Shown: positions 11,861 through 29,933 of the stretch, piece by piece
How positions within the stretch are numbered: the first letter of the stretch is position 1
Layout of the letters: each line of letters opens with the position of its first letter
Source: Candidatus Nealsonbacteria bacterium
GTDB lineage: Bacteria; Patescibacteriota; Minisyncoccia; Minisyncoccales; JANBVM01
Length of the DNA: 64,000 nucleotides
Direction: 5' to 3'
NCBI GenBank assembly: GCA_047456295.1
Contig: CP179887.1
Location: 45,944 to 109,943, forward strand
Program-made: the position numbers and the translations under genes
Notes under the pieces: model-generated
Seen by the model: the letters and a program-made list of their open reading frames with translations, nothing else
What the model was told of the DNA's origin: nothing
Databases searched by the model: none

Positions 11861-11934
11861 GGGGACGTAGCTCAATTGGTTAGAGCTCGTGATTGTCGAT
11901 CACGAGGTTGCGAGTTCGAGTCTCGTCGTCCCCG
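11861..11934 (+). tRNA. tRNA-Asp (GTC)
   Basis: Acceptor GGGGACG/CGTCCCC, anticodon loop TTGTCGA, T arm GCGAGTTCGAGTCTCGT, discriminator G. Confidence 0.9.
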
Positions 11935-11944
11935 AATTTTCAAG

Positions 11945-11964
11945 CCCCGCCAAGGCGGGGTTTT
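11945..11964 (+). terminator. Intrinsic terminator after tRNA-Asp
   Basis: CCCCGC-CAAG-GCGGGG hairpin followed by TTTT. Confidence 0.75.
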
Positions 11965-11988
11965 GAGTTATATTGGGCAGGTAAGCTA

Positions 11989-12017
11989 TTGACAAAATTA
12001 AAATGGTGTGATATAAT
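11989..12017 (+). promoter_or_regulatory. Consensus extended -10 promoter, leaderless geometry
   Basis: TTGACA, 17-nt spacer, TGaTATAAT. The -10 ends 6 nt before the ATG at 12024. Confidence 0.65.
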
Positions 12018-12023
12018 TTAAAT

Positions 12024-12227
12024 ATGATAGGAAATAAGAAAACTGGAATAAGTGCCGATCGGTTCAAAGAGTTACAAGAATTGGCTGGCAAAATCCAGAA
12101 GATAAAGAAAAACCTGATTAGTCGCAGTCCTCAATTATCAACAGAGGAGGCGGCGCAGGTTGAGAGATTTTTCGAGCCGTTGTTAAAATCTCTTGCCAAA
12201 GTGTTAAATGGTGTTAAAAATAACTAA
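12024..12227 (+). CDS. Small hypothetical protein (67 aa)
   Basis: ORF placed exactly at the predicted TSS of a consensus promoter. No motif recognised. Confidence 0.4.
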   Translation: MIGNKKTGISADRFKELQELAGKIQKIKKNLISRSPQLSTEEAAQVERFFEPLLKSLAKVLNGVKNN

Positions 12228-12275
12228 ATCCTATTTTTTTTATTTTTTATTTATTGTTCTTTACAATCAATCCTA

Positions 12276-12313
12276 TTTTTCAAGCCCATAACTTACTTGT
12301 GATTTTGAAAAAG
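12276..12313 (+). repeat. Motif X copy 1 (TTTTTCAAGCCCATAA-N-TGTGnTTTTGAAAAAG)
   Basis: Second copy at 30465-30504 in the same relative position: after a small ORF that follows a tRNA-Asp 3' sequence. Confidence 0.6.
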
Positions 12314-12317
12314 CCCG

Positions 12318-12340
12318 AAACCACCTTTGAGGTGGTTTTT
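12318..12340 (+). terminator. Intrinsic terminator
   Basis: AAACCACC-TTTGA-GGTGGTTT hairpin followed by a T-run. Confidence 0.7.
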
Positions 12341-12425
12341 GGTTTAGGCAGGAAAGTAGTCGAGAAAGCTATCTATTTTCTCCATCATTTCTTCAGGATT
12401 CTCTATAGAATCAAGCCATTCCAGA

Positions 12426-12499
12426 GTTCGAAAATAGTCTCGTCGTCCCCGCCACAATAAGAAATCGCCTTTTAGGTGATTTTTTTGTAGAATAGGAAT
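12426..12499 (+). repeat. Junction module J1: tRNA-Asp 3'-end-like fragment, hairpin with T-run, -10 box
   Basis: GTTCGAaaataGTCTCGTCGTCCCCGCCA compared with the genuine tRNA-Asp 3' end. Then ATCGCCT-TTT-AGGTGAT hairpin, T7, and TAGAAT 6 nt before the ATG at 12500. Confidence 0.7.
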
Positions 12500-13471
12500 A
12501 TGAAAATAATTAACCTCAAAAAGATTTTTTCAAGCATTCTGAAGCCGACTCCGCCTTATAATTTTAATGTAACAATCCATAAGCCGTCGCATTTCCCCTC
12601 GTCTGATAATGAATGGTCAAAAGGGAAATACTGGATAACAATGGTTTGGAGAGGCAAGTATCTGGGATTAAAATTGGAAAATAAGGGAACGGTAAAAAGA
12701 CCAAAGATAAGGTTTAGCGTATATTCAAAAAAGCCCCTATTAAAGTCATATAAGGATAGTTTAATGACAGAAATAGAATGGAGGTTTAATCTGAAGTCGG
12801 ATATTTCAGAATTTGCTAGAAAGTTCAAAAAAGATAAAATTTTAAAACCTTTATTAAAAAAATGGCAAGGAATGAAACCAGTAGCTGCTAATTCGTTATA
12901 TGAAACGCTTGTCATATATATTGTTTTACAGAATGCCGTAGTTCGTCGTTCGGTTCAGATGTTGGAGAATCTTTTTAATAAGTTTGGTAAGAAGGTGAGA
13001 TTTGACAACAAAACCCTTTCTACTTTTTGGGAGCCAAAAGCTATAAATAAAGTTTCAGAGCAAACATTAAGAGATTTAAAGTTAGGTTACAGAGCTAAAT
13101 TCTTAAAGAAAATCAGTTTACAGTTCGTCAAAGGAAAGATTGATGAATTTAAAATGAGAAAGATGGAGAGAGAAGAGTTAAAAAAGAAAGCATTAAAACT
13201 TTACGGAATTGGACCTGCTTCTGTAGAGTATCTTTTATTTGAGGATTTTTATCATTACAATGCCTTAGAAACTATTCCTCCCTGGGAACAGAAAATAATG
13301 TCTAAGTTGTTATTTAACAAGAAGTTAGTTTCTACTAAAAAAATCTTAAACTTCTTCAGAAAAAGATATTCAGGATGGGAGAAATTAGCCTTTCACTATA
13401 TCTGGGAAGATATCTTCTGGAAAAGAAAAACCCAGAAAATAGATTGGTTGGAAAAAGAAATCCGACTATAA
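12500..13471 (+). CDS. HhH-GPD superfamily DNA glycosylase-like protein (AlkA/Ogg-like)
   Basis: Helix-hairpin-helix LKLYGIGPASVEYLL, preceded by the LYETLVIYIVLQN helical core typical of HhH-GPD enzymes. The position of the catalytic Asp is unclear. Confidence 0.6.
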   Translation: MKIINLKKIFSSILKPTPPYNFNVTIHKPSHFPSSDNEWSKGKYWITMVWRGKYLGLKLENKGTVKRPKIRFSVYSKKPLLKSYKDSLMTEIEWRFNLKSDISEFARKFKKDKILKPLLKKWQGMKPVAANSLYETLVIYIVLQNAVVRRSVQMLENLFNKFGKKVRFDNKTLSTFWEPKAINKVSEQTLRDLKLGYRAKFLKKISLQFVKGKIDEFKMRKMEREELKKKALKLYGIGPASVEYLLFEDFYHYNALETIPPWEQKIMSKLLFNKKLVSTKKILNFFRKRYSGWEKLAFHYIWEDIFWKRKTQKIDWLEKEIRL

Positions 13472-13508
13472 AATCGCCAAGCAGGCAGTTTCTTGGTAGG
13501 ATGGAAAT
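13472..13508 (+). repeat. Junction module J2 (degenerate)
   Basis: AAATCGCCAAGCAGGCAG...TAGGAT-GGAAAT-ATG. Same frame as J1 and J3-J5, with a decayed hairpin. Confidence 0.5.
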
Positions 13509-13922
13509 ATGAAAAAAATCTTATTTGTCTATTTAGGTAATGTTGCCAGAAGCCAGATGGCTGAGGCATATTATAATCATTTTACAAATTCCAACAATGC
13601 AACAAGTGCTGGCATTTTAGATTTTACTCCAGTAAGATACGGTTATCCTATAAAAGAAGTTGTTCGGGCGATGAAAGAAGAAAGTATAGACGTATCCAAA
13701 AATAAAGTCAAAACCATAACAAGAGAGATGGTAAAAGAAAATGATAAGATTTTTGTTATGTGTAAGAAAGAAGAATGTCCTAACTTTCTATTGAATTCTG
13801 GTAAAGTTACTTTTTGGAATGTTGGTGACCCTTTTGATACAGATTTAGAAAATTTCAGAAGAATTAGGGATAAAATTAGGGGGAAAGTAGAACAACTGAT
13901 TACAGAAAAAAGAATTAATTAA
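13509..13922 (+). CDS. LMW phosphotyrosine phosphatase / ArsC-fold protein lacking the catalytic cysteine
   Basis: P-loop region reads VYLGNVARS where the family has VCxGNxCRS. The DP general-acid motif (VGDPF) is retained. Confidence 0.65.
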   Translation: MKKILFVYLGNVARSQMAEAYYNHFTNSNNATSAGILDFTPVRYGYPIKEVVRAMKEESIDVSKNKVKTITREMVKENDKIFVMCKKEECPNFLLNSGKVTFWNVGDPFDTDLENFRRIRDKIRGKVEQLITEKRIN

Positions 13923-14191
13923 TATTTAATCATTCAATTATTGCGATACGCGGAAAATTATTCCAAAACCAAGTTTTAATTATATCCAACCATCCCCGCC
14001 AAATTGTAATTCAAAGAATCAAGGTTCTGAGGAGCGGTAGCGACGAATGGTTCTTATAAAATTGGATGTAATTAGATATAATTCGAGCTTTTTGTTCGGA
14101 TTTTTTTCACAAAATTACACAAAATTAGTTTGATATTTTTTTAAAATTTGTTACACTAAATTTAGGCCTCCTCGAATTTAGTGAAAATTTT

Positions 14192-14764
14192 ATGAAACAA
14201 AAAGAAGTATTATTTATTACGGGCAATAAAAGTAAATTAGCTGAGACAACTAAGATGGCTGAAAGATTCTCAGTAAAGATAGTAGGGCAAAAAGCTAATT
14301 TATTTGAGCCAATGGTATCCGATTCTACTAAAATCTTAATTGACAAAGCAAAGGATGCATATAAAAAGTTTGGTAAGCCTTTAATCGTTGATGATGCTGG
14401 TATTTACTTTGGAGCTTATCCTAATTTTCCTGGTGTATTCACGAAATTTATTATTAAGTTGCTTGGTTTTAATGGAATCATTAAGTTATTAGAAGGAAAA
14501 AGCAAAGACGCTTACTTCAAGTGCACAATTGGTTTTATTGACGAAAAGTTAGACCAGCCTCTTTTATTTGAAGGTATATCTAAGGGGAAAATAACCGAGA
14601 AAATTTCGATAAACTTCAATGGAAATTTCGAATTTAATAGTATTTTTATTCCTGAGGGAGAAAGTAAAACTTTTTCAGAAATGTCAATTGAGGAACGTAG
14701 TAAACACTGTCATAGAGATAGAGCGTTAGAGAAATTTTTAAGTTGGTATGTTAAAGAATATTAG
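14192..14764 (+). CDS. Ham1/RdgB-family non-canonical (d)NTP pyrophosphatase
   Basis: Family motifs ITGNKSKLAE, DDAGIYF, PGVFTKF and SKHCHRDRAL. Confidence 0.75.
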   Translation: MKQKEVLFITGNKSKLAETTKMAERFSVKIVGQKANLFEPMVSDSTKILIDKAKDAYKKFGKPLIVDDAGIYFGAYPNFPGVFTKFIIKLLGFNGIIKLLEGKSKDAYFKCTIGFIDEKLDQPLLFEGISKGKITEKISINFNGNFEFNSIFIPEGESKTFSEMSIEERSKHCHRDRALEKFLSWYVKEY

Positions 14765-14769
14765 TAAAA

Positions 14770-15396
14770 ATGAAATATATTAAAAAGGAAACAATTGGGG
14801 CGAGTTGGTTAAAAGCAGTAGAGGTGGTTATGGAAGAAGGAAACGATTTTTATGATCGCGATGTTAAGATAAAGGAGTTACTTGATCTTTTCATTGAGAT
14901 AAAAGATGCTCTTCTAATTGACGACGTGATAAAGAAACATGGAGATAAGTATATGATAGAACAACTAAAAATAGTTTTATTGGATACAAAACCAGGTGAG
15001 TGGGGGTGGAGTTATGGACAAAGGTTGTTTGGAGATAGTAACTATTTTAACCAAATAGAATTTATTGTAAATAAATTAAAGAGGAAACCGGAAACAAAAT
15101 CAGCTACCGTAACTTGTTTATTTCCTAAGGAGGATTTTCAGAAGGGAGCTCACATTCCATGTATTTGTCTTTTGGATTTTAAAATTAGAGATAATAGGTT
15201 GAACATGAGTGTTTGTTTAAGAAGCCAAGATATTGCTAAAAAGATGTATGGGGATGCGCTTGCTTTAGGTAAACTCATGGAAAAAGTAGCTAACGAATTA
15301 GATGTCTTGACGGGTAATCTTAAACTGTACATTATGTCGGCTCATATTTATGAAAACGAGTTTGAGAAAATGAGAAAAATAATAGGAAACTCTTAA
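14770..15396 (+). CDS. Short thymidylate-synthase-like protein 1 (Asp at the ThyA Asn177 position)
   Basis: IPC(131)ICLL...CLR(151)SQD(154)...YGD(162)...SAHIYENE. Spacing matches E. coli ThyA C146/R166/D169/N177/H207-Y209. Confidence 0.7.
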   Translation: MKYIKKETIGASWLKAVEVVMEEGNDFYDRDVKIKELLDLFIEIKDALLIDDVIKKHGDKYMIEQLKIVLLDTKPGEWGWSYGQRLFGDSNYFNQIEFIVNKLKRKPETKSATVTCLFPKEDFQKGAHIPCICLLDFKIRDNRLNMSVCLRSQDIAKKMYGDALALGKLMEKVANELDVLTGNLKLYIMSAHIYENEFEKMRKIIGNS

Positions 15397-15585
15397 AATA
15401 AATAAATTCACCATAAACATTCTGATAGTGATAAGCTTACTATAATAAGTTTATTTTTTTTATTGTTGAGCAATCCTGAAATAATATGGGTCTTGATAAT
15501 TCAAAGAAATACTGTATTATATGAATAGCTATAAGATATATTTCCAATAGCAAAGTTCTTTATAACTTAAAAGAGGTGAAATGAG

Positions 15586-16152
15586 ATAAAAGTTATATAT
15601 GTAGGAGGAGTTAAGGGTGTTGGTAAAACCTTTGTCCTTCGTGAGGTCTTTAGGCAACTATCTTTAGAAAAAGTGCCTTTTAAGAAGGCAAAAGTTGCAA
15701 AAGTTATGTTTGATCTATTAAAAAGATACGGTATGGTTGAGAAGTATGATGAGTTAGAAAATATTAGTGTCGAAATAAAAGATTGTATTCGCAAAGAATC
15801 TTTCAAAAAAATACTGAAAGATAAAAATGAAAATTTGATTTTCGATGGCCATTATTCAATATCGTCACAGTTTGGTTATGAGTATGGAATTCCATTGAAT
15901 TTTATAAAAGAAATTGATCACTTAGTATTATTATATAACAATGAAGATGTTGTTCGCAGGAGAAGGTTAGAAGATAAATCTAAAAAAAGAGAGACAAGTT
16001 TAGAGAAAGTAATAATAGACTTAATAATAGAGGAAGCGTTTGCTGAGTTTTATGCGAGATTACGGGGTAGAAAGTTAAAGAAGATAGAAACTAATAATAA
16101 AGCCAGTGTCAGTTTAAAAGATTTTATAAAGGAGGTGTTTGAAAGTGGTTAG
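15586..16152 (+). CDS. P-loop nucleoside/nucleotide kinase-like protein (archaeal Adk-like); apparent ATA start
   Basis: An in-frame Walker A (GGVKGVGKT) lies upstream of the GTG at 15673 given in the ORF track. Between the TGA at 15577 and the P-loop the only start-like codon is ATA at 15586, 7 nt after the SD AAGAGGTGA. Confidence 0.55.
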   Translation: MKVIYVGGVKGVGKTFVLREVFRQLSLEKVPFKKAKVAKVMFDLLKRYGMVEKYDELENISVEIKDCIRKESFKKILKDKNENLIFDGHYSISSQFGYEYGIPLNFIKEIDHLVLLYNNEDVVRRRRLEDKSKKRETSLEKVIIDLIIEEAFAEFYARLRGRKLKKIETNNKASVSLKDFIKEVFESG

Positions 16153-16789
16153 ATTAATAGAAGCAGATAATATTTCAGAAGCATGGTTAAAGGGATGTGA
16201 ATGTATTATAAATTACGGCTTTAGAACGAAAAGAAAAATCAAACTCCATAATTTGATTGCTGAGATTAAAAATATAACTCTAGATAAATACATAGATGAG
16301 CAATTTAGAAATTATATGAATCTAAGAATATTCAAGCGAACATTGGATATCGTTTCTTCAGATCAAAACCTCAATTCACATCCTAATTATTGGAGACGCT
16401 TGAAAGGAAAGGAAGAATTTAAGATAGACCAAGTGGCCCGCGTTATTTCCAGACTTAGAAAGCAGCCTCATTCAACCAAGCTTACCTTATGTATTTACAG
16501 CCCTAACGATTTCAAAAAGATGTATACACCTTGTATTTTATGTGCTGAATTAAGAGTGAATAAGAGGCGTCTTAATATGACCGCTTTTATCAGAAGTCAA
16601 GATTTCGCAAATAAAAGTTATGCTGATTATATAGGTTTATCATCTATTCTTAAACGAATTGGAGAGAATAGTAACATAAAACCAGGAGCAATTCTTACTC
16701 ATACTATAACCGCATTTATTGCCTATAAAGACCTAAGCCGAATGAAATCCTTTTTAAATATCATAAGGGAAAAGAAAATATCAAATTAG
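16139..16789 (+). CDS. Short thymidylate-synthase-like protein 2 (Asp at the Asn177 position; HxY motif lost)
   Basis: TPC(132)ILCA...IR(152)SQD(155)...YAD(163). The C-terminal motif is TAFIAY instead of xAHIY. Start is TTG 16139 or GTG 16145, after the SD AAGGAGGTG, and overlaps the kinase stop. Confidence 0.65.
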   Translation: MKVVRLIEADNISEAWLKGCECIINYGFRTKRKIKLHNLIAEIKNITLDKYIDEQFRNYMNLRIFKRTLDIVSSDQNLNSHPNYWRRLKGKEEFKIDQVARVISRLRKQPHSTKLTLCIYSPNDFKKMYTPCILCAELRVNKRRLNMTAFIRSQDFANKSYADYIGLSSILKRIGENSNIKPGAILTHTITAFIAYKDLSRMKSFLNIIREKKISN

Positions 16790-16863
16790 TTATATGCACC
16801 AGCACCAGTTTATAATGTAAACTTATAAACTGGATTTTTTATATAAGCTAAGAAATACAATAG

Positions 16864-17106
16864 TACTTATATGAAGGAGAAAAAGACAATAAATTCATCC
16901 AGGTTTTAGTTAAAGATTCAGACATAGGTTTGGACAGGAAAGACAAAAACAATCTTTTTAAGCTCTTCCATAGGGGAGAAAAAGCCACTTCTTTGTATCT
17001 TAACGGCTTAGGTTTAGGGCTCTTTATTGTTAAAAACCTGATCGAATTCCACAAGGGCGCGGTTAAAACTAAAAGCGAGGAGGGGAGAGAAGTACCTTTA
17101 TCATAA
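16864..17106 (+). pseudogene. C-terminal fragment of a sensor histidine kinase (HATPase_c G1/G2 boxes)
   Basis: Start-less frame reads ...VKDSDIGLDRKDKNNLFKLFHRGE...LNGLGLGLFIVKNLIEFHKGAVKTKSEEGREVPLS*. It is preceded by an in-frame TAG. Confidence 0.7.
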
Positions 17107-17145
17107 AAATACCTTTCATGGTAGAGGTTTAAGAGGATAATCCTT

Positions 17146-17226
17146 CCAGAATTCATTTCTAACCATGCTTAACCATTCTCGTCACACTAAGTCGCATTTG
17201 AAGTGATTTTTTGATAGAATCGAAAT
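17146..17226 (+). repeat. Junction module J3 (degenerate tRNA-Asp-3'-like segment plus TGATAGAAT -10)
   Basis: CCAGAATTC...TCTCGTCACAC parallels CCAGAGTTCGA...TCTCGTCGTCCCC in J1. TTTTTTGATAGAAT-CGAAAT-ATG follows. Confidence 0.55.
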
Positions 17227-17254
17227 ATGAAAAAAGATTTAAGATTATCAAGAT

Positions 17255-18250
17255 ATGGATTTAGCTCTTCTTAAAAAAATTCTTGTAAAAGAACCATCTT
17301 TTCGTTTAAGGCAAGCGAAAAGAGCTATATTTAGAGACTTGATTGAAGATTGGTCAGGAGTTACAACCTTCCCTTTGTCTTTACGAGAAAAATTGAAAGA
17401 AAAATATCCTTTAAAAATTCAAGCTAAAACTTTTACCTCTAGAGACAAAAGAACAGTCAAAGCTGTTATTAATTTAAAAGACAATTTGAAAATTGAAACA
17501 GTTTTAATGCGCCATAAGAATAAGAGAAATACTGTTTGTGTTTCATCTCAGGTTGGCTGTGCTTTAGGTTGTATCTTTTGTGCTACTGGAAAGGCTGGTT
17601 TCAAAAGAAATCTTGAGGCTTTTGAAATTGTAGAACAGGTTTTATTTTTTGCTCGTTATTTAAAAAAAGAGAAACAAAAGATTACCAATATTGTCTTTAT
17701 GGGAATGGGAGAACCTTTTTTAAATTATGATAGTGTTTTGAACGCTATTAAAGTCCTAAACGATAAAGAAGGATTTAATTTGGGAGCAAGACGATTTTCA
17801 ATCTCTACTGTAGGAATTATAGAGGGTATTAAAAAATTGGCTGAAGAAAAACTTGAAGTGAATTTGGCAATTTCTCTTCATGCACCTGATGATACCCTGC
17901 GTTCAAAAATTATACCAATTAATAGAAAATATCCTCTTTCAAAAGTTTTAAAAGCAGTTGATGAGTATATTAAAAAGACTCGGCGTAGAGTAATGTTTGA
18001 ATACATAATGATAAAAGGATTAAATGATTCAGATGAGTATGCGAAAAAATTAGCAGAATTAATGAAGAAAAGAGAGCTTTCTTTTGTGAACCTTATTTCT
18101 TACAATCCCACAGGAATTTTTAAACCCTCTCTGAGTACAAGAATAAAAAAATTCAAAGATATTTTAGAAAAAGCAGGAATAGCCGTTACTCAGAGATATC
18201 GTTTTGGACAAGATATTAAGGGGGCTTGTGGTCAGCTAGCAGCTAAATAA
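17255..18250 (+). CDS. rlmN: Radical-SAM 23S rRNA/tRNA adenine-C2 methyltransferase
   Basis: CALGCIFCATG radical-SAM motif, GMGEPFLNY, and the C-terminal catalytic Cys in GACGQL. Confidence 0.9.
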   Translation: MDLALLKKILVKEPSFRLRQAKRAIFRDLIEDWSGVTTFPLSLREKLKEKYPLKIQAKTFTSRDKRTVKAVINLKDNLKIETVLMRHKNKRNTVCVSSQVGCALGCIFCATGKAGFKRNLEAFEIVEQVLFFARYLKKEKQKITNIVFMGMGEPFLNYDSVLNAIKVLNDKEGFNLGARRFSISTVGIIEGIKKLAEEKLEVNLAISLHAPDDTLRSKIIPINRKYPLSKVLKAVDEYIKKTRRRVMFEYIMIKGLNDSDEYAKKLAELMKKRELSFVNLISYNPTGIFKPSLSTRIKKFKDILEKAGIAVTQRYRFGQDIKGACGQLAAK

Positions 18251-18465
18251 GTTTATTAATTAAAGATCAGATTAACCAATAAAAAAATCAAAAATCTGAC
18301 CAAGAGATATAGAGATAACTAATACTGCTAATTTTAGTCTTTCTGAAGAGTTTTTTTCTTAAGACCATAAGACAGTTTTTGTTTAGGTGGCTGACTTCAT
18401 CGTCCATCCGTTATTATAAGTAATTTATCAGGTTTTTTTCAAAATCCACCTAACTAAAATTCTAA

Positions 18466-18512
18466 AATCGTTTCGTAGTCCCCGAATACCACTGCCCAGC
18501 GGGGACATTTTT
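18466..18512 (+). repeat. Junction-like relic J7 (tRNA-3'-like segment plus hairpin with T-run)
   Basis: TTCTAAAATCGTTTCGTAGTCCCCGAA resembles J6. GTCCCCG-N15-CGGGGAC stem is followed by ATTTTT. Confidence 0.45.
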
Positions 18513-19768: not shown

Positions 19769-19777
19769 TTCATTAAC

Positions 19778-21808: not shown

Positions 21809-21859
21809 GTTTTAATTTTAATAAAGGCAGGCTTTTTTATTTCAACCAATAGTAAAAAA

Positions 21860-24800: not shown

Positions 24801-25378
24801 ATTACAAAAAAGTCATTGGCAAGTACATAAAACCCATTTCTCAAGACTTCGTTGGGTTAAAGGTAAAAAAAATTAAAAAGTTAAAAAATACAGATGAATT
24901 TGTTTATGATTTTTCAGTTCAGGGAGACCAAAATTTTATAGCCGGGACAGGTGGAGTATTATTGCATAATTCTGATGGTAATCACATTAAAGCCCTGCTC
25001 TTGACTTTATTTTACCGTTACTTTAAACCTTTAATTGAGAAGGGTTATCTGTATATTGCCCAGCCTCCTCTTTATAAAATTCAAGCCGGGAAAGAGATTC
25101 AATTCGCTTATACCGAGAATCAGAAATTAAATATCTTAAAGTCAATGAAAAAAAGAGTTGGTATTTCTATTCAAAGATACAAGGGTTTAGGAGAGATGAA
25201 TGCAGGAGAGTTATGGGAAACAACCATGGATCCTGAAAATAGGATTTTACTTCAGGTCACTATTGAAGATGCCAGGGAGGCAGATAAGATTTTTGACACC
25301 TTGATGGGAAAGGAAGTTTCATCAAGAAAGAAGTTTATTCAAACCTATGCAAAAAAGGTGAAGAATCTTGATATTTAA
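21860..25378 (+). CDS. gyrB: DNA gyrase subunit B precursor containing an intein
   Basis: GHKL ATPase motifs (GLHHLIRECVGNSIDEA, GGLHGIG), Toprim EGESAGG, and a C-terminal YKGLGEMN motif. 1172 aa; about 645 aa once the intein is removed. Confidence 0.9.
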   Translation: MKKKKIKKRKKTKLTYTAKDIYVLHGLEPIRKRPGMYIGSTGPEGLHHLIRECVGNSIDEAIMGYCNDIKVFLLPGDRIKIEDNGRGIPVDKHPQTKKSALETVMTTLHAGAKFGGKVYVSTGGLHGIGVSVVCALSRYMKAEVCREGFRYSQEYSKGKVKTKLKKIGRCKDRGTIITFEPDPEIFKDIKFNKKKIINYLRQQAYLTKGLRITLIDKTVKPNTTYSFYFEGGIVSYVKYLTQGRSLLHRNTFYCFEEKDGILVETAFVYTDEYECYEDAFANNIHTAEGGTHLTGFRSALTRTFNDYARRNEFLKENSTNFSGQDTREGLTAVVSIKIRDPQFEGQTKSKLGNSEAKTVVEHVVGKTLTDFLERNPTDAKEIIQRFILAQKARKAAKAAKDIILRKRLLDGLALPGKLADCSSKNAEESELYIVEGESAGGSSRQARDRHFQAILPLRGKILNVERARLDKILSSKEIKSLVIALGTAIAEDFNIEKVRYHRIIIMCDADSITGDTPIFLYNKEKQEFFLSKVGEFIENCDDTSEYMVLTYNQKNGKRELKEIRQTIKHPLRTPLYEIKTYCGYPIKVTSCHSVYVFENGKVITKKGDEVKKGDLLVFPKTFPRQNKEYIMSLKDVILNSDFRNISVKVPQDYVKEIPLRAWCELDSPLWNRLQKKRELARVSRRVMGESIGIYDRVIQQWEQKIDNVMPRFCQFQKYLNQLEIDNKNLNYNIYIPLKDWKDKNISRETPLYYGNHSRILRTRFELNDDLAYLLGFYLGDGCACPEKNSPNRFSISLNKDKSEKYLERLSRIIKEKFNAKAILNHRKTNDIQLYFHSFEFKLLLIKLGLLGKKCNEKFIPDIFFNVKREIQEDLLEGLLHSDGFITVWPKGKAKKAIYGWRLSSQRLIQGILTIFRQWGIFPAYTVCQTKDHFRRDGKIIRSNFKSYDLSISTVEYLLKTEKVWTGHKDAQKLKNYLKKVDYKKVIGKYIKPISQDFVGLKVKKIKKLKNTDEFVYDFSVQGDQNFIAGTGGVLLHNSDGNHIKALLLTLFYRYFKPLIEKGYLYIAQPPLYKIQAGKEIQFAYTENQKLNILKSMKKRVGISIQRYKGLGEMNAGELWETTMDPENRILLQVTIEDAREADKIFDTLMGKEVSSRKKFIQTYAKKVKNLDI
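23390..24970 (+). mobile_element. Intein (527 aa) with LAGLIDADG homing-endonuclease domain, inserted in the GyrB Toprim DxD motif
   Basis: N-extein ends IIIMCDAD. Intein starts SITGDTPIFL (block A with Ser1) and ends VLLHN, with +1 Ser (SDGNHI). LAGLIDADG motifs are LLGFYLGDGCA and LLEGLLHSDGF. Confidence 0.85.
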
Positions 25379-25393
25379 CATTGAAAAAATAAT

Positions 25394-25594
25394 ATGAATT
25401 TTAAAAATATTCCCATAAAAATTAATACCTTTTTTAAAGAAATCAAGGTAGAGATTAGGAAGGTTAATTGGCCAACAAGAAAGGAAACCATAAGAGATAC
25501 CTTGATTGTCATCGGGGTTTCAATAGTAGTTGCCATATTTTTAGGTGGAATAGATTTTCTCTTTACCACCTTATTAAATAGATTTATACTTTAG
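25394..25594 (+). CDS. secE: Preprotein translocase subunit SecE
   Basis: 66 aa with VNWPTRKE followed by a single TM helix. Immediately upstream of nusG. Confidence 0.85.
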   Translation: MNFKNIPIKINTFFKEIKVEIRKVNWPTRKETIRDTLIVIGVSIVVAIFLGGIDFLFTTLLNRFIL

Positions 25595-25598
25595 AAAT

Positions 25599-26144
25599 AT
25601 GCCAAAGCAAAAAATAATCCAAAAGAGAAGCTGGTATGTGCTCCATACCTATTCAGGGTATGAAGAATCTGTGGCCAAGAATTTAAGACAAAGGATTGAG
25701 TCTTTGGGTATGGAAGATAAAATCTTTAATGTTATTGTTCCCAAGGAAAAAAAGATAAAGATTAAAGCAGGCAAGAGAAAGGTGATTGAAGAAAAGATTT
25801 ATCCAGGTTATGTGCTGGTGGAAATGATTGTTACAGATGATTCCTGGTATGTTGTCAGGAATACCCCTAACGTTACTGGTTTTATCGGGGCTGGTACCAT
25901 TCCTATTCCGGTTTCAGAAAAAGAGATTAATGACCTGAAAAAGAGGATGGAGGTGAAAGAGCCCCAGTACAAGATTAAGGTTAAAATTGGTGATTTGGTA
26001 AAGATTACAGATGGTCCTTTTAAGGATTTTGAAGGCAAGGTTTCTGAGATTGATGAAGAAAAGGGGAAGATAAAGGTCTTGGTAAATATATTTGGAAGAG
26101 ACACGCCTGTTGAGTTAGATTCCCTCCAGGCCAAGAAGCTTTAA
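25599..26144 (+). CDS. nusG: Transcription termination/antitermination factor NusG
   Basis: [14 protein letters not shown] start and a C-terminal KOW domain ([18 protein letters not shown]). Confidence 0.9.
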
Positions 26145-26170
26145 TATTAAACCTATCTAATGACAAGATT

Positions 26171-26593
26171 ATGGCAAAAAAAATAAAAGCCGTCATAAAA
26201 TTACAGATTCCAGGAGGTAAAGCTACTCCTGCACCTCCTGTAGGGCCTTCTTTGGCCCAGCATGGATTAAATATTGCTGAATTCTGCAAGAAGTTTAATG
26301 ATGCAACCCAGAATCAGCAGGGAGCTAAGATTCCTGTAGTGGTTACCATATATGAGGACAAGAGTTATACCTTTAAGACAAAGCAACCCTTGATCTCTGA
26401 TTTATTGAAAAAAGCAGCTGGTATTGAGAAGGGTTCAGGAGAGCCTAACAGAAAAAAGGTGGGCAAGATTACAAAAGAACAGCTAAGAAAGATAGCTGAA
26501 CAAAAGATAGCTGATTTAAATACCGAAGACATAGAAAAAGCAATGAAGATTATACAGGCTACAGCTAAAAACATGGGAATAGAAGTTCAATAA
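26171..26593 (+). CDS. rplK: 50S ribosomal protein L11
   Basis: [26 protein letters not shown] motif. Confidence 0.95.
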
Positions 26594-26602: not shown

Positions 26603-27082
26603 ATGTTAAATTCAAGAATCAATTTGAAAATAGCAGTAATTATCCTTGGCATTGCCATAATAGGAGCATTAATTTTAATTCAGAATGAGTATTCTTTAAC
26701 CAAAAAAGAGATAGATGATTTGATTGAAAATCAGTTTGTTGATTTCCAGTATCAGAAAAGAAAAGCTGTTCAGGAAGAAACAGTATATATCATTAATAAG
26801 GGAAATGAGGACGTGCTCTACTATGAAATAGTGCCTTCTGAAGACTCAACTGTCTTTTCCTTGCTGGAGGAGTTAAGCCAGAGAGAGAATTTTGAGCTAG
26901 AATCAACCTTATATGAGGGAATGGGCGTATTTGTTGAAAGTATTGATGGTCTCAGGAATGGAACCCAAGATAAATATTGGCAATACTGGGTTAATAATGA
27001 ATTGCCCCAGGTTGCTGCAGATAAAATGCAGATTAAGAAAAATGATGTTATTGAGTGGAGATTTGAGGCTTCTACTTTTTAG
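26603..27082 (+). CDS. Membrane-anchored DUF4430-like (transcobalamin beta-domain-like) protein
   Basis: N-terminal TM helix, then GVFVESIDGLRNGTQDKYWQYWVNNE...KNDVIEWRF, the typical DUF4430 core. Confidence 0.65.
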   Translation: MLNSRINLKIAVIILGIAIIGALILIQNEYSLTKKEIDDLIENQFVDFQYQKRKAVQEETVYIINKGNEDVLYYEIVPSEDSTVFSLLEELSQRENFELESTLYEGMGVFVESIDGLRNGTQDKYWQYWVNNELPQVAADKMQIKKNDVIEWRFEASTF

Positions 27083-27108
27083 TACGTATTTAACAATCCA
27101 TAAATTAA

Positions 27109-27678
27109 ATGGACTATAAAAAGCTTTTTTTTACTATTTTAATTATCATCTTCGGAGTTATTTTTCGCATTTTTTTGAATGAAACAATAGGTATTCCTAA
27201 TTTTGAAGCAGTAACTGCTTTATCTTTGCTTTCAGGGGTGTTTGTGGGAGGTGTTTACAGTATTTTAATTCCCCTTTCCATCATGTTTTTTTCTGACCTT
27301 TATTTTGGCAATACCTTTATTTATCTTTTTACCTGGTCAGCCTTTGTCTTGATTGGAATTTCTGGTAATATATTCAAGAGGGATTCTAAACATTATTTGC
27401 TTAAAATTACAGGTTCAGGAGTTTTGTCTGTTTTATTTTTTTATTTGTGGACGAATCTTGGCTGGTGGCTGATTTCTGGGATGTATCCCATGAGTTTTTC
27501 AGGTTTGATTCAATGTTATATTGCTGCCCTTGCTTTTTTAAAGAATCAACTTATTTCCGTGATTCTTTTTGTTCCTGGTTTCAATGTTATTTTTTCTTTT
27601 CTTATTGATAAGGTTTTTTCTTCTTCTCAAAAGGTAAAAAAGCATGGAACCTTTATTTTACCCGAAATTAATCATTAA
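27109..27678 (+). CDS. Multi-pass membrane protein, possible vitamin-uptake (ECF-S-like) component
   Basis: 5-6 predicted TM helices and a PNFEAVTALSLLSG motif. Adjacent to the DUF4430 gene. Function is inferred only. Confidence 0.4.
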   Translation: MDYKKLFFTILIIIFGVIFRIFLNETIGIPNFEAVTALSLLSGVFVGGVYSILIPLSIMFFSDLYFGNTFIYLFTWSAFVLIGISGNIFKRDSKHYLLKITGSGVLSVLFFYLWTNLGWWLISGMYPMSFSGLIQCYIAALAFLKNQLISVILFVPGFNVIFSFLIDKVFSSSQKVKKHGTFILPEINH

Positions 27679-27699
27679 GATTATATTATTTTAATTTAT

Positions 27700-28266
27700 A
27701 TGATTCTTTCTGACAGAGACATCAAAAAATATATTAAAATGGGTAAGATTAAAATAAATCCCGAACCTGATTTTAAAAAACAGTTAGGTTCAGCTTCTTT
27801 AGATTTAAGACTGGGAAATGAATTCAGGGTTTTTAACCACGTAAAAAAACCGTTTATTGATACCAAAGATCCAAAGACTTTTAAGAATATAACCCATTTG
27901 ATAAAGATAAAAGATAAAGAACCTTTTGTTTTCCAGCCAGGCCAATTTATTTTAGGGGTGACCTTAGAGGAGATTTCTCTGCCCGATGGCGTGGCAGCCA
28001 GGGTTGATGGAAGGAGCAGCATTGGAAGACTGGGAATTGTTGTTCATTCCACTGCCGGACATGTTGATGCCGGATTTAGGGGAAGAATTAATCTTGAGAT
28101 GGAGAATATTGGAATGATGCCCGTTCTTTTGTATCCTGGAACAAGGATCTGCCAGTTGGTTTTTGAATTGCTTTCTTCACCAGCTGAGATTCCTTATTAC
28201 AAAAAGAAAGGGGCAAAATATTTAGGAACAAAATCCCCGGAAGAAAGCAAGCTTGAAAAAATATGA
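27700..28266 (+). CDS. dcd: dCTP deaminase
   Basis: MILSDRDI start, SLDLRLG, GRSSIGRLG and PGTRICQLVF motifs. Confidence 0.9.
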   Translation: MILSDRDIKKYIKMGKIKINPEPDFKKQLGSASLDLRLGNEFRVFNHVKKPFIDTKDPKTFKNITHLIKIKDKEPFVFQPGQFILGVTLEEISLPDGVAARVDGRSSIGRLGIVVHSTAGHVDAGFRGRINLEMENIGMMPVLLYPGTRICQLVFELLSSPAEIPYYKKKGAKYLGTKSPEESKLEKI

Positions 28267-29093
28267 ATGATTGGCCCAAGGTAGAAGGAAGATATAAAGT
28301 GGGAAACAAGACCTCTCCCATTGCTGTTTGTACCAATGCCAGTATTGATGACATAGAGATTGACCTTAAAAAAATAGCAATTATTGGAAAGTGTGTTACA
28401 GAGAACATTGGCATTGAAAAGATAATCCAGAATATAGTTTCCAATCCTAATATAAGGTATTTGATTCTTTGCGGAAAGAAATCAAAGGGTCATTTTATCT
28501 CCCAGGCAATTGAATCTTTAAAGAAAAATGGCATTGACCAAGATAAGAGAATCATTGGAGCTGCAGGCAACATGCCTTATTTAAGAAATATTGATGAAGA
28601 ATTAATTGAAAGGTTCAGGAAACAGGTAGAAATAATCAATATGGCAGGGGAGACCAACAGCCAAAAAATTGAAACAATGGTAGATAAATTATTAGAAGGA
28701 AAAACAGAGGAGTTTAAAGGTGAAGCTGTTCAAATTAAAAAAACAGAGGAGATTGAAGCTAAACCAGCAAAATGGATTGCTGACCCTAAAGGTTATTTTG
28801 TAATATCCCTTAACAATGAAAGAACTAAGATTATGGTTGATCATTATATAAAAGGGGAGATCAACAAAAGAATTATTGGCAAGAATGCCAAGGAAATCTG
28901 TGATACCATTGCCAGATTAAAACTCATAGGAGAGTTTGAACAGTCTTTGGAGCATTCCATGTATTTGGGAAGAGAACTTGAAAAAGCAGAAATAGCCTTA
29001 AGGGAAAACCTTGATTTTGAACAGGACAAGGAATTAAAAATTAAAAAGCTTAAAAAACAAGAGCCAACCAATGAATACGGTTGGTTTGATTAA
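28263..29093 (+). CDS. MtrA-like (corrinoid-protein fold) plus DUF4346 fusion protein
   Basis: WPxVEGRYKVGN...PIAVCT...TENIGIEKIIQNIVSNPNIRYLILCGKKSKGH matches the MtrA family core. The C-terminal half (DPKGYFVI...HSMYLGRELEKAE) is DUF4346-like. ATGA overlap with dcd. Confidence 0.65.
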   Translation: MNDWPKVEGRYKVGNKTSPIAVCTNASIDDIEIDLKKIAIIGKCVTENIGIEKIIQNIVSNPNIRYLILCGKKSKGHFISQAIESLKKNGIDQDKRIIGAAGNMPYLRNIDEELIERFRKQVEIINMAGETNSQKIETMVDKLLEGKTEEFKGEAVQIKKTEEIEAKPAKWIADPKGYFVISLNNERTKIMVDHYIKGEINKRIIGKNAKEICDTIARLKLIGEFEQSLEHSMYLGRELEKAEIALRENLDFEQDKELKIKKLKKQEPTNEYGWFD

Positions 29094-29871
29094 AAATATG
29101 TATCAAACAAGAATAATTGCAGCTAAAAATTTAGGTCAGGCATGGGAAAGAGCCTGTATCTTAATAATGAAAGAAGGACATAATCGTTATGTTCAGGCCC
29201 CTGAATATAAAATTGAAACAAGGGATTTGCCTTTGATGATAAAGGTGTCAGAACCTTTTTCAGAGCCAAGACTTTCTTTGAAATCCAATGTTAAAAAAGA
29301 ACAGGCTGATGACTATTCCAAAAAACTGCTTTTTGGGAGCGGAAAAGAAAAAGAAAACAGTTTTGATTATACCTATTTTTCTCGGCTTCGTTGTTATCCT
29401 GATTGCCGGGTGAGGGCTTTTTTGCCCAGTATTACAGAATCAAAAGAAGAACTGGAACAGGAGGTAAGAAAGGTTTCTCCTGACGGTAAATGTCTGGTTG
29501 AGAGAATTGACCAGGTGGAAAAAGCAATTAAGATTTTAAAGAAAGATCCAACCCGTCGGACAGTTGTTCTTCATACCTGGATTCCTTACAGGGATTTGAT
29601 GAAATTTGGACCTAAGAGAGAAGACACCTCTTCTCCCTGCGTGGTTTTGGTTTATCCTCAACTGGTTGATGGGAAATTGCACATGTTTATTGTAATGAAA
29701 ACCAATGATTTATATAATGCCTGGCCTGAGAATGCCTATGCCCTTACCAATCTCCAGAAACATATAGCTGATGAATTGGGGGTTGAAACTGGAACCTATA
29801 CCCATTTTTCTGTGAGTATGCATATTTATAAAGACATGTTTGAGGAAGTAAAAAGGAAATTTAATCTTTAA
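29071..29871 (+). CDS. Thymidylate-synthase-like protein 3 (Asn at the specificity position; RR dyad present)
   Basis: DPTRRTVVLHTW, SPC(190)VV, MK(210)TND(213), WPEN(221) and SMHIYKD. Overlaps the upstream gene; an alternative ATG lies at 29098. Confidence 0.7.
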   Translation: MNTVGLIKNMYQTRIIAAKNLGQAWERACILIMKEGHNRYVQAPEYKIETRDLPLMIKVSEPFSEPRLSLKSNVKKEQADDYSKKLLFGSGKEKENSFDYTYFSRLRCYPDCRVRAFLPSITESKEELEQEVRKVSPDGKCLVERIDQVEKAIKILKKDPTRRTVVLHTWIPYRDLMKFGPKREDTSSPCVVLVYPQLVDGKLHMFIVMKTNDLYNAWPENAYALTNLQKHIADELGVETGTYTHFSVSMHIYKDMFEEVKRKFNL

Positions 29872-29909
29872 GAATAAAAAACTTAATATTAGGGAATTAA
29901 GTTTTAGGA

Positions 29910-29933
29910 GTTCGAATCTCGTCGTCCCCACCA
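29910..29933 (+). repeat. tRNA-Asp 3'-end fragment with CCA (att-like relic)
   Basis: GTTCGAaTCTCGTCGTCCCCaCCA compared with the genuine GTTCGAgTCTCGTCGTCCCCg at 11913-11934. No 5' half of a tRNA lies upstream. Confidence 0.75.

What the first reader, a model, noticed from the sequence alone, without database searches (positions are those of the whole stretch)
11913..29933. Three copies of the tRNA-Asp 3' end and a duplicated downstream architecture
The genuine tRNA-Asp 3' end GTTCGAGTCTCGTCGTCCCCG (11913-34) recurs at 12426-54, with a 5-nt insertion and ending GCCA. It recurs again at 29910-33, matching 20 of 22 nt and ending ACCA. Neither extra copy has a tRNA 5' half. After both the genuine tRNA and the 29.9-kb copy the same layout follows: terminator hairpin, TTGACA promoter, small orphan ORF (67 or 115 aa), motif X (12276 and 30465), terminator, then a leaderless gene. 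This is the signature of att-site duplication by elements that integrate into tRNA-Asp. However, the 18 kb between the outer copies contains essential genes (pheST, gyrB, secE-nusG-rplK). Rearrangement between repeat copies, or several nested events, must therefore be invoked.
Basis: partly seen in the sequence, partly recalled or inferred. Interest (0 to 1): 0.6.

Follow-up and report, generated by a model that had tools for sequence, protein, structure and literature searches.

The report
Displaced tRNA-Asp ends mark small insertions
The extra tRNA-Asp tail copies in this tiny Candidatus Nealsonbacteria genome are real and most likely scars of several small insertions and rearrangements next to the tRNA-Asp gene, a known kind of genome scar, and not the two ends of one 18-kb mobile element.

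Summary
The tRNA-Asp 3' end (11913-11934) recurs at 12424-12454 and 29908-29933, and I found a fourth, degenerate copy at 18460-18487. Motif X is a real 43-nt repeat.

The 18-kb-element reading fails. Relatives keep tRNA-Asp, pheST, gyrB, secE, nusG, rplK, tmk, deoC and gatB in the same order, so that block is ancestral. What varies are two slots: tRNA-Asp to pheS (0.1 kb, 1.1 kb or 6.8 kb) and rplK to tmk.

- **Copy 2** is old. Another species carries the same piece, with the same 5-nt insert, upstream of its HhH-GPD gene at a locus with no tRNA.
- **Copy 3** and its terminator match the native tRNA-Asp flank of a sister species (27/31). It heads a 0.6-kb cassette that ends in motif X, like the cassette at the real tRNA.
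- **Strain variation:** a second strain shows zero SNPs across the tRNA-proximal cassette against 1.9% beyond it, and a 3.7-kb indel.
- **No recombinase** is encoded in the window.

Best reading: att-type scars of tandem, integrase-less insertions, plus one relocated cassette. A functional tRNA-end mimic remains a live rival. Similar tRNA-Asn- and tRNA-Gln-like pieces are widespread in the clade.

The parts
11689..11934 (+). tRNA-Met, tRNA-Met, tRNA-Asp(GTC) cluster. The tRNA-Asp is 11861-11934 and has no encoded CCA.
   Evidence: ARAGORN; Rfam tRNA, 70.8 bits. The same cluster follows gatA and a conserved 171-aa ORF in L003 and L015.
11911..11934 (+). Reference copy: T-stem 5' GAG, T-loop, T-stem 3' strand, acceptor 3' strand and discriminator of tRNA-Asp.
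   Evidence: Sequence. Identical in L015.
11935..12334 (+). Cassette a. It holds terminator T1 (11939-11967), a perfect promoter TTGACA-17-TATAAT (11989-12017), leaderless orf67 (12024-12227), motif X1 (12273-12313) and the start of a bidirectional terminator (12318-12338).
   Evidence: There are zero SNPs against strain L107 over 11730-12334, compared with 22 SNPs in the next 1183 nt. orf67 has no Pfam match.
12424..12454 (+). Copy 2: GAGTTCGA + AAATA + GTCTCGTCGTCCCCG + CCA. It is followed by an AAATCGCC hairpin, TGTAGAAT and the leaderless HhH-GPD gene (12500-13471).
   Evidence: The same piece (25/26) lies upstream of HhH-GPD in L023/L024, away from any tRNA. Four-fold sites of the adjacent gene are only 56% identical.
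12455..18459 (+). Segment b: HhH-GPD, LMW phosphatase, Ham1, TS-like, AAA_17 kinase, TS-like, radical SAM. It is absent between tRNA-Asp and pheS in L003 and L015.
   Evidence: Pfam; synteny. GC is 0.30-0.32 here, against 0.35-0.40 in the flanks.
13518..17206 (+). A 3.69-kb stretch (LMWPc to the second TS-like gene) that is missing in a 98%-identical strain (L107). The breakpoint lies inside the shared promoter/ATGAAAAAA module.
   Evidence: The repeat modules at 13468 and 17186 belong to family D3.
18460..18487 (+). Copy 4 (new): TTCTAAAATCGTTTCGTAGTCCCCGAAT. It is a degenerate copy-2-type piece about 230 bp upstream of pheS, at the right edge of the variable slot.
   Evidence: The contig of strain L107 ends at 18459, immediately before it.
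18716..26593 (+). Ancestral backbone, not mobile: pheS, pheT, gyrB (with intein), secE, nusG, rplK.
   Evidence: Pfam. The same order is found in L003, L005, L015, L016 and L018.
26603..29871 (+). Variable dTMP-synthesis slot: DUF4430, DUF6580, dCTP deaminase, MtrA-like/DUF4346, TS-like.
   Evidence: Pfam. Relatives carry dCMP deaminase with ThyX (L001, L003, L005), dCMP deaminase with NYN (L015), or a related module with a fused MtrA-TS-DUF4346 (L016, L017).
29908..29933 (+). Copy 3: GAGTTCGAaTCTCGTCGTCCCCaCCA with no insert. It is preceded by a weak AT-rich hairpin at 29880-29903.
   Evidence: Strain L018 reads GAGTTCGAGTCTCGTCGTCCCCACCA, 21/22 to the tRNA.
29934..30504 (+). Cassette b. It holds terminator T3 (29938-29962), TTGACA (29968-29973), orf115 (ATG at 30044, ends 30370; 108 aa) and motif X2 (30462-30504, the apex of an 80-nt hairpin at 30444-30524).
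   Evidence: T3 matches the displaced native tRNA-Asp flank of L015 at 27/31 (score 42 against 12.2 +/- 2.1; 0 of 2000 shuffles). orf115 has one homologue only, in 98% strains. Relatives have NYN or other small genes at this position.
30527..31206 (+). Native terminator, a double -10 and leaderless tmk (ATG at 30589). This is backbone.

Best explanation
The extra tRNA-Asp tails are att-type scars: old 3' ends of the tRNA-Asp gene that were pushed downstream when DNA was inserted, more than once, inside the T-loop-to-3'-end stretch of the gene.

Proposed mechanism. An incoming segment carries its own copy of that stretch. Recombination within it rebuilds the gene from the incoming copy. The previous end, its terminator and whatever lay downstream are displaced.

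Present order, read as a tandem array: tRNA-Asp | cassette a (T1, promoter, orf67, motif X; 0.4 kb) | copy 2 | HhH-GPD to radical SAM (6 kb) | copy 4 | pheS.

Copy 3 and its terminator T3 form an authentic former tRNA-Asp end plus native terminator. It now heads a sibling cassette (orf115, motif X) that sits in a second variable slot just upstream of tmk. It presumably moved there by excision and re-insertion or by illegitimate recombination.

The essential genes between the outer copies are ancestral backbone.

Shown:
- the copies and their shared 5' boundary;
- the conserved backbone;
- variable content of both slots in relatives;
- homology of copy 3 plus T3 to a sister species' native flank;
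- the age of copy 2;
- a zero-SNP tract that coincides with cassette a;
- strain-level cassette loss.

Inferred:
- site-specific recombination as the cause;
- a recombinase acting in trans or since lost;
- the order of events;
- the relocation of cassette b.
For: - The copies are beyond chance and are 3'-specific. The 14-mer gives 4 hits against 0.06 expected. With 15-nt probes from 26 tRNAs, every good non-tRNA hit with a T-loop-like context came from 3' probes. None came from 5' or anticodon-arm probes.
- Copies 2 and 3 start at the same position (GAG before the T-loop), as att identity blocks do.
- L003 has the empty site, with tRNA-Asp about 100 bp from pheS.
- L015 has the identical tRNA-Asp, then a different 0.6-kb insert, then TCCCCG plus the native flank, a promoter, orf92 and pheS.
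- The terminator after copy 3 matches that L015 flank at 27/31, with 0 of 2000 shuffles as good.
- Cassettes a and b share both ends (tRNA-Asp tail, motif X) but not their interiors.
- Strain L107 has 0 SNPs over 11730-12334 and 22 SNPs in the next 1183 nt. I computed about 5e-4 for the 400 non-tRNA bases by hand. The tract ends about 20 nt after motif X.
- Copy 4 lies at the right edge of the slot, and the L107 contig ends one base before it.
- In L057, HhH-GPD is the first gene after a tRNA-Asp gene. That fits copy 2 as a former tRNA end.
- High-GC phages use this same tRNA-Asp 3' half as an attachment site, with an integrase C-terminus read from the sequence next to it in L008 (L012 is near-identical over the region shown). 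So the site class is used in nature.
- Literature: displaced tRNA fragments mark the ends of islands (PMC4383910), and such fragments are pervasive (PMC9897764).
Against: - No ORF of 110 aa or more in the window matches an integrase, recombinase or transposase family. None was found in the arrays of relatives that I scanned either.
- Copy 2 predates a species split and is 25/26 conserved, while four-fold sites of the neighbouring gene are 56% identical. That suggests constraint or gene conversion rather than a neutral scar.
- In L023 copy 2 lies far from any tRNA.
- The cargo includes HhH-GPD, a gene widespread and well conserved in the clade (3392 homologues, many at about 80% identity).
- Copies 2 and 4 carry a 5-nt insert after the T-loop that a simple crossover does not predict.
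- Cassette b has no right-hand tRNA repeat.
- The one strain-level indel seen breaks in promoter modules, not in tRNA pieces.
- SNP density across cassette b equals the background.
Confidence: 0.5

Rival explanations
1. The tRNA-like pieces are functional cis elements: a tRNA 3'-end mimic placed between a stop codon and the terminator/promoter module. They would act on transcript 3' ends, or as a protein or DNA site, and be kept by selection. Their resemblance to att scars would then be historical at most.
For: - Copy 2 is 25/26 identical between species whose four-fold sites are 56% identical. I computed about 6e-6 by hand for neutral sites.
- The piece travels with HhH-GPD to another locus.
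- A widespread co-oriented family (AACAGGTTCTAAC.. plus a tRNA-Asn- or tRNA-Gln-like tail) starts 1-25 nt after stop codons next to housekeeping genes such as ppa, an LD-carboxypeptidase gene and a PCMT-family gene.
- No recombinase was found.
Against: - The pieces have no stable fold or T-arm and no Rfam match.
- They are present or absent at orthologous positions. For example, none follows HhH-GPD in the window, but one does in L028, L030, L058, L059 and L067.
- Decayed tandem copies occur in a single spacer (57048, 57138, 57163).
- The Asp-type copies cluster downstream of the tRNA-Asp gene.
- Stems are conserved in sequence without covariation, judged by eye from the sequences listed. No pair-count or alignment-fold tool was run.
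- The CCA is not conserved.
- An independent profile of the family's 5' module does not recognise copies 2, 3 or 4 (E = 8-19).
Confidence: 0.25
2. Copy 3, and perhaps the others, is the stump of a second tRNA-Asp gene or of a segmental duplicate of the tRNA-Asp locus. Its 5' part was lost by ordinary deletion or replacement, with no site-specific recombination involved.
For: - Copy 3 has no insert.
- It keeps a native-type terminator.
- It is preceded by a hairpin where an anticodon arm would lie.
- The relative L003 encodes CCA in its tRNA-Asp.
Against: - No relative has a tRNA at that position.
- The 5' boundary is the same as in copy 2.
- Only 3' parts are ever duplicated.
- The sibling cassette also shares motix X at its far end, i.e. 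motif X.
Confidence: 0.12
3. One reading: one or more nested integrative elements span the whole 18 kb between the tRNA-Asp gene and copy 3.
For: The outer copies are direct repeats. Copy 3 carries a native-type flank, as an attR would.
Against: - pheS to rplK lies in the same order, directly downstream of tRNA-Asp, in L003 and L015. The block continues to tmk, deoC and gatB in five relatives.
- There is no integrase.
- The genes are essential.
Confidence: 0.03

Closest known systems
Genomic islands and prophages integrated in tRNA genes by tyrosine integrases (Islander-type; T-loop sublocation class of Williams 2002, cited from my own knowledge; PMC4383910)
   Same: An intact tRNA gene sits at one end and direct repeats of its T-loop-to-3' end lie further downstream. 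An empty site exists in a relative, and the content between the repeats varies.
   Different: No integrase is present. The segments are tiny (0.4-6 kb) and carry widely conserved housekeeping-type genes. One repeat is older than a species split and conserved. One repeat sits 18 kb away across ancestral essential genes. Two copies have a 5-nt insert.
Integrase-less cis-mobilizable elements (CIMEs) and tandem accretion at tRNA att sites in streptococcal ICEs (cited from my own knowledge; not checked in the paper library)
   Same: Short elements bounded by att repeats without their own recombination genes. Tandem arrays carry several copies of the tRNA 3' end, with the newest element nearest the tRNA.
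   Different: No partner ICE or integrase is known here. Mobilisation has not been shown. The host is a CPR bacterium with a genome of about 0.7 Mb.
Phage attachment sites carrying the tRNA-Asp 3' half (viral contigs L007, L008, L009, L012)
   Same: The same 3' sequence, GAGTTCGAGTCTCGTCGTCCCCGCCA, occurs without the 5' half of the tRNA.
   Different: Those are high-GC phages. Their identity block starts in the anticodon loop, and an integrase C-terminal motif can be read next to the fragment in L008 (L012 is near-identical over the region shown). They are unrelated to this AT-rich lineage. Copy-2-type and motif X patterns gave no viral hit.
Mosaic intergenic repeats (REP/BIME, pneumococcal BOX, Correia elements; cited from my own knowledge)
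   Same: Modular short elements between genes, with module stems conserved in sequence, variants homogeneous within a genome, and promoters or terminators inside the modules.
   Different: Here one module reproduces the exact 3' end of a resident tRNA. No terminal inverted repeats or target duplications could be defined.

Membership tests
tRNA-targeting genomic island (tyrosine integrase) | Intact target tRNA gene at one boundary | tested here: met
   tRNA-Asp 11861-11934, 70.8 bits.
tRNA-targeting genomic island (tyrosine integrase) | Displaced direct repeat of the tRNA 3' part at the other boundary | tested here: met
   Copy 2 (12424-12454), copy 4 (18460-18487) and copy 3 (29908-29933).
tRNA-targeting genomic island (tyrosine integrase) | Integrase gene inside the element, usually next to an att site | tested here: not met
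   Pfam scan of every ORF of 110 aa or more in the window found no integrase, recombinase or transposase family.
tRNA-targeting genomic island (tyrosine integrase) | Related genomes show the uninterrupted site | tested here: met
   In L003, tRNA-Asp is followed by pheS after about 100 bp. This holds for the inner interval (tRNA-Asp to pheS) only.
tRNA-targeting genomic island (tyrosine integrase) | The whole interval between the repeats is the inserted DNA | tested here: not met
   For the outer pair (11934 to 29908), the block pheS to rplK is ancestral.
tRNA-targeting genomic island (tyrosine integrase) | Foreign composition or accessory cargo | tested here: inconclusive
   GC is 0.30-0.32 in 13-18 kb against 0.35-0.40 in the flanks. 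But HhH-GPD is widespread and well conserved in the clade.
Integrase-less att-bounded element (CIME) / tandem accretion | Bounded by att repeats and lacking recombination genes | tested here: met
   Cassette a lies between the tRNA end and copy 2. Segment b lies between copy 2 and copy 4. No recombinase is present.
Integrase-less att-bounded element (CIME) / tandem accretion | Excision or integration driven in trans by a related element's integrase | not testable with these tools
   This needs the rest of the genome and read-level junctions.
Integron cassette array / CALIN | attC sites (imperfect palindromes with a GTTRRRY core), mostly promoterless cassettes | tested here: not met
   Read from the sequences: the tRNA-like pieces are not palindromic and each cassette has its own promoter. 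I saw no GTTRRRY-type core, but ran no formal attC search.
tRNA gene, pseudogene or tRNA-like structure (including the tmRNA 3' domain) | Cloverleaf, or at least a T-arm plus a paired acceptor | tested here: not met
   No ARAGORN or Rfam call. tmRNA scores 10.4 bits against a threshold of 47. There are no intact T-arms outside true tRNAs. Folds show no arm.
Nealsonbacteria 'AACAGGTTCTAAC..' intergenic element family (defined here) | Match to the conserved 5' module | tested here: not met
   A profile built without the Asp-type copies scores copies 2, 3 and 4 at noise level (E = 8-19). Only the architecture and position are shared.

The most novel reading that the evidence does not exclude
Nealsonbacteria, and perhaps other CPR bacteria, shuffle ordinary genes as small self-promoted cassettes. 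Each cassette would be tagged with the last 15-26 nt of tRNA-Asp, tRNA-Asn or tRNA-Gln, and tRNA genes would serve as docking sites for a recombinase encoded elsewhere. That would be an integron-like system built on tRNA tails. Alternatively, the tails are a new class of functional tRNA-3'-end mimics in mRNA 3' regions.
Probability: 0.2. Interest if true: 0.75.

Novelty: new variant of a known kind. Interest (0 to 1): 0.45.

Why it matters
Displaced tRNA tails are the textbook marker of integrated elements. Here they occur in an ultra-small symbiont-type genome, without any integrase nearby, and bound cassettes of a few hundred bases to a few kilobases that carry everyday genes.

If the cassette reading is right, it would explain how gene order is reshuffled in streamlined CPR genomes. 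It would also give a handle (tRNA-tail repeats, motif X) for mapping recent exchange between strains.

If the mimic reading is right, it would be a new cis element. Either way, the finding warns annotators that tRNA fragments in these genomes do not delimit the DNA between them as mobile.

Tried and rejected
- **Exact look-up of tmk with the GTG start** failed. The ATG start at 30589 is the one on record.
- **Genome-contig scan with the 171-aa anchor** returned one truncated locus only.
- **Metagenome-contig scan with a 41-nt tRNA-Asp string** returned nothing.
- **Global alignment of the two 0.6-kb regions** aligned only the tRNA piece.
- **orf67 against orf115, L015 orf92 and the small ORFs of relatives:** no similarity.
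- **orf115 as a decayed NYN gene:** rejected by tblastn.
- **Rfam at permissive thresholds** on all three regions and on four relatives' loci gave only noise.
- **tRNA-like folding of the copies:** rejected.
- **Placing copies 2 and 4 in the AACAGGTTCTAAC family:** an independent profile does not support it.
- **Viral scans** for the family module, the copy-2-type piece and motif X gave two uninformative contigs or nothing. L105 has an AT-rich 130-nt end on a 52% GC contig, possibly chimeric.
- **Search for integrases** in the arrays of L036, L059 and L105: none.
- **Idea that the copies are cDNA of mature tRNA** (CCA present, insert right after position 58). I dropped it as a main explanation, because the CCA is not conserved between strains and the insert sequences look homologous across copies by eye.
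- **Literature searches** on Nealsonbacteria or Patescibacteria with tRNA or integrase terms found nothing specific.

Full report
**What is there.** The window comes from a Candidatus Nealsonbacteria (CPR/Patescibacteria) genome. The tmk product is identical to a protein on a 689-kb NCBI contig of that name. A tRNA-Met, tRNA-Met, tRNA-Asp cluster lies at 11689-11934.

The tRNA-Asp tail GAGTTCGAGTCTCGTCGTCCCCG recurs twice:
- at 12424-12454, with AAATA inserted after TTCGA and CCA added;
- at 29908-29933, with two substitutions and CCA added.

The 14-mer core with up to two mismatches occurs four times, against 0.06 expected. The fourth hit extends to TTCTAAAATCGTTTCGTAGTCCCCGAAT at 18460-18487. 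It shares the 5-nt insert of copy 2, and the joint degenerate pattern has 0 expected matches.

None of the copies is a tRNA or folds into a T-arm.

Motif X is a genuine 43-nt repeat at 12273-12313 and 30462-30504, with 0 of 1000 shuffles scoring as well. It folds as a two-tier hairpin whose inner stem differs between the copies in a way that keeps it paired.

The rest of the 'duplicated architecture' is present but not homologous:
- the ORFs are unrelated;
- the terminator/promoter blocks are not significantly similar;
- only the first site has a consensus promoter;
- terminator plus -10 plus leaderless-ATG modules are generic here (family D3).

**The 18 kb is backbone.** I fetched contigs that carry tmk homologues.
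- L003 reads gatA, a 158-aa ORF (42% identical to window 11089-11604), tRNA-Met, tRNA-Met, tRNA-Asp, then pheS after about 100 bp. It continues pheT, gyrB, secE, nusG, rplK, dCMP deaminase, thyX, a small ORF, tmk, deoC, gatB, miaA, miaB, DUF5667, thrS, dnaE.
- L005, L015, L016, L017 and the 98% strain L018 keep the same chain, each over the part it covers.

So pheS to rplK was not brought in by an element. Two slots differ:
- **tRNA-Asp to pheS:** 0.1 kb in L003, 1.1 kb in L015, 6.8 kb here.
- **rplK to tmk:** dCMP deaminase with ThyX, dCMP deaminase with NYN, or DUF4430/DUF6580 with an MtrA-like thymidylate synthase module. A different small gene sits just before tmk: NYN in L015-L017, membrane ORFs in L003 and L004, none in L001 and L005, and orf115 here.

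**Copy 2 is old and travels with a gene.** HhH-GPD (12500-13471) is widespread in the clade, with 3392 homologues, many at about 80% identity.

In L023/L024 (86% identical protein) the gene follows a class II aaRS gene (Pfam tRNA-synt_2) and a peptidase S11 gene. No tRNA lies within 10 kb upstream. Yet its upstream spacer reads GTTCGAGAATAGTCTCGTCGTCCCCG, then a 10-nt spacer, the AAATCGCC hairpin, TGTAGAAT and ATG. That is the copy 2 piece at 25/26, with the same insert.

Four-fold degenerate sites of the two genes are only 56% identical (44/79). By my hand calculation, 25/26 would have a probability of about 6e-6 for neutral sites. The piece is therefore constrained, or kept like the tRNA by conversion. 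The tRNA-Asp genes of the window and of L015 are identical.

The CCA is not part of the conserved unit. It reads GTCG in L023 and GTCA in strain L107.

In L057, HhH-GPD is the first gene after a tRNA-Asp gene. In other contigs it follows tRNA-Gln (L051), a partial tRNA-Asn (L032) or another tRNA (L103).

**Copy 3 is a former tRNA-Asp end with its native terminator.** In L015 the tRNA-Asp gene is identical to the window's. It is followed by a 0.6-kb insert holding a 105-aa ORF that looks MazG-like by eye (not scanned). Then come ..CCATCCCCG, AAATTTCAAGCCCGAGCGTTTAGCTCGGGTTTTA, a promoter, orf92 and pheS.

The terminator after copy 3 (TTTCGGGCCCGAGCATTTGGCTCGGGTTTTA) matches that displaced flank at 27/31, with a score of 42 against 12.2 +/- 2.1 and 0 of 2000 shuffles as good. 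The window's own T1 shares only AATTTTCAAGCCC with it.

orf115 exists only in this species. Its single homologue is 99% identical and sits in strains L018 and L019, which keep copy 3, T3 and motif X. In L018 the copy is 21/22 identical to the tRNA.

The window therefore holds two sibling units with the same ends and different interiors:
- tRNA-Asp tail, terminator, promoter, orf67, motif X, at the tRNA itself;
- tRNA-Asp tail, native-type terminator, promoter, orf115, motif X, in the tmk-upstream slot.

**Strain-level dynamics.** L107 comes from sample DRR463592 and is about 98% identical to the window.
- It lacks 13518-17206. Its breakpoint lies in a 29-nt overlap formed by the promoter/ATGAAAAAA modules of LMWPc and the radical SAM gene.
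- It has no SNP across 11730-12334 (tRNAs, T1, orf67, motif X), against 22 SNPs in the next 1183 nt. By hand I get about 5e-4 for the 400 non-tRNA bases.
- The identity tract stops about 20 nt after motif X. This suggests the tRNA-proximal cassette was exchanged or acquired recently as a unit.
- The contig stops at 18459, one base before copy 4.

Two other assemblies break at 11727 and 11730, inside tRNA-Met.

**A wider phenomenon.** Many Nealsonbacteria spacers carry the element AAACAGGTTCTAAC(A/G)T(C/T)GT followed by about 13 nt.
- It starts 1-25 nt after a stop codon and is co-oriented with the genes.
- It often precedes the AAATCGCC hairpin/promoter module.
- The tail matches tRNA-Gln (four copies in L059, 13-14/15 to the L026 tRNA-Gln) or tRNA-Asn (window 56086-56107, 20/22 to the partial tRNA-Asn of L032).

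The window has such pieces at 56086, 57048, 57163, 58830, 58900 and 59932. They flank genes for an AAA_18-like kinase, inorganic pyrophosphatase, an LD-carboxypeptidase, a NUDIX protein and PCMT.

Only 3' tails are duplicated, never 5' or anticodon parts.

Copies 2 and 4 share the layout of this family: a T-loop-like start, 5 nt, GT, 12 nt, then G, placed before the same hairpin. However, a profile of the family's 5' module built without them does not detect them. I therefore do not file them as members.

**Interpretation.** The simplest account that covers the evidence is repeated recombination inside the T-loop-to-3'-end stretch of tRNA-Asp. It covers the 3'-specific copies with a common 5' boundary, the empty and differently filled sites in relatives, a displaced native flank, sibling cassettes and a cassette-sized identity tract.

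That process leaves a tandem array: tRNA, cassette a, copy 2, segment b, copy 4, pheS. One cassette has since relocated (copy 3 to motif X). This is the known logic of tRNA-targeted islands (PMC4383910; PMC9897764) and of integrase-less, att-bounded elements.

Several facts count against it:
- no recombinase is encoded in the window;
- copy 2 is old and conserved;
- the cargo consists of widely conserved housekeeping-type genes;
- the 5-nt insert is unexplained;
- cassette b has no right-hand repeat.

These facts keep a functional tRNA-tail-mimic reading alive. The single 18-kb element is excluded by synteny.

**Verdict.** This is a new variant of a known kind and of moderate interest.

Noticed in passing
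window 57048-57065, 57163-57199, 58830-58866, 59932-59969; L036 11351, L031 3548 and 5147, L059 1834/2676/3843/4548, and others: A conserved intergenic element, AAACAGGTTCTAAC(A/G)T(C/T)GT plus a tRNA-Asn- or tRNA-Gln-like 3' tail. It gives about 31 nhmmer hits with E < 0.1 in about 0.9 Mb of Nealsonbacteria loci (63 hits at E <= 10). It is co-oriented with genes, starts 1-25 nt after stop codons, has no Rfam match, and is often followed by a second conserved hairpin, GCTCGGTTCRAGnGACCGAGAC.
   Followed up: partly
window 56086-56107 and 58900-58921: Plain tRNA 3' fragments without an insert. GTTCGAGTCCTACTACCGGAGC is 20/22 to the partial tRNA-Asn of L032. GGTTCGAATCCTAACCCCACA is the second fragment. 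Each is preceded by a hairpin and followed by a terminator, like copy 3.
   Followed up: partly
window 12459, 13468, 17186, 56118, 57228, 59966; 46 regex matches in the relatives' loci and the window (a few are the two strands of one hairpin): Terminator-like hairpins whose stem sequence is conserved across genera (AAATCGCC-loop-GGCGRTTTTTT). Each is fused to an extended -10 (TGnTAGAAT) and a leaderless ATG. One occurs at 56118 with no co-directional gene upstream. Stem conservation at sequence level recalls the DNA-uptake sequences found in the terminators of competent bacteria.
   Followed up: no
window 13518-17206 versus L107: A 3.69-kb presence/absence difference (LMWPc, Ham1, TS-like, kinase, TS-like) between strains about 98% identical. 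The breakpoint lies in a 29-nt shared promoter/start module.
   Followed up: yes
window 21860-25378: gyrB carries an intein (1172 aa; Pfam Intein_splicing). L016 also has it. L003, L005 and L015 do not.
   Followed up: no
window 14770-15396, 16139-16789, 27700-29871: Three divergent thymidylate-synthase-like genes lie here, together with dCTP deaminase and an MtrA-like/DUF4346 pterin-binding protein. Relatives have ThyX with dCMP deaminase instead. In L016 and L017, MtrA, TS and DUF4346 form one 480-aa fusion, whereas here they are two overlapping genes.
   Followed up: no
L018 6873-8096 (between deoC and gatB; window equivalent about 31880): The 98% strain has an extra 407-aa gene (DUF559/MTES_1575-type endonuclease-like hits) that is absent from the window. 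This is another strain-level insertion.
   Followed up: no
window 26171-26593 versus 62471-63548: rplK is separated from rplJ-rplL by 36 kb, and no Pfam-scanned ORF in the window matched a ribosomal L1 (rplA) family. tRNA-Tyr, tRNA-Thr and tRNA-Trp (50720-51301) are also detached from secE-nusG. The classical cluster is broken up in this lineage.
   Followed up: no
window 42698-42774 and 46235-46311: A 77-nt direct repeat (91% identical) covers a TATAAT promoter and the first codons ATGAAATACCCAAATTTTTCTGAAG. The second copy starts the RNase HII gene.
   Followed up: no
window 56161-56460 and 57269-57568: A 300-nt repeat (75% identical): paralogous small P-loop (AAA_18-like) genes in adjacent cassettes.
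   Followed up: no
L105 14690-14819 (IMG/VR contig, 52% GC): An AT-rich 130-nt contig end carries a terminator and the AACAGGTTCTAAC..CCCGGAGCC element, which abuts GC-rich DNA exactly at the element's 3' end. This is either a chimeric assembly or a junction. No integrase lies nearby.
   Followed up: partly
window 11727-11730 and 18459: Independent Logan contigs break inside tRNA-Met (three assemblies) and one base before copy 4 (one assembly). These are branch points that bracket the variable slot.
   Followed up: no
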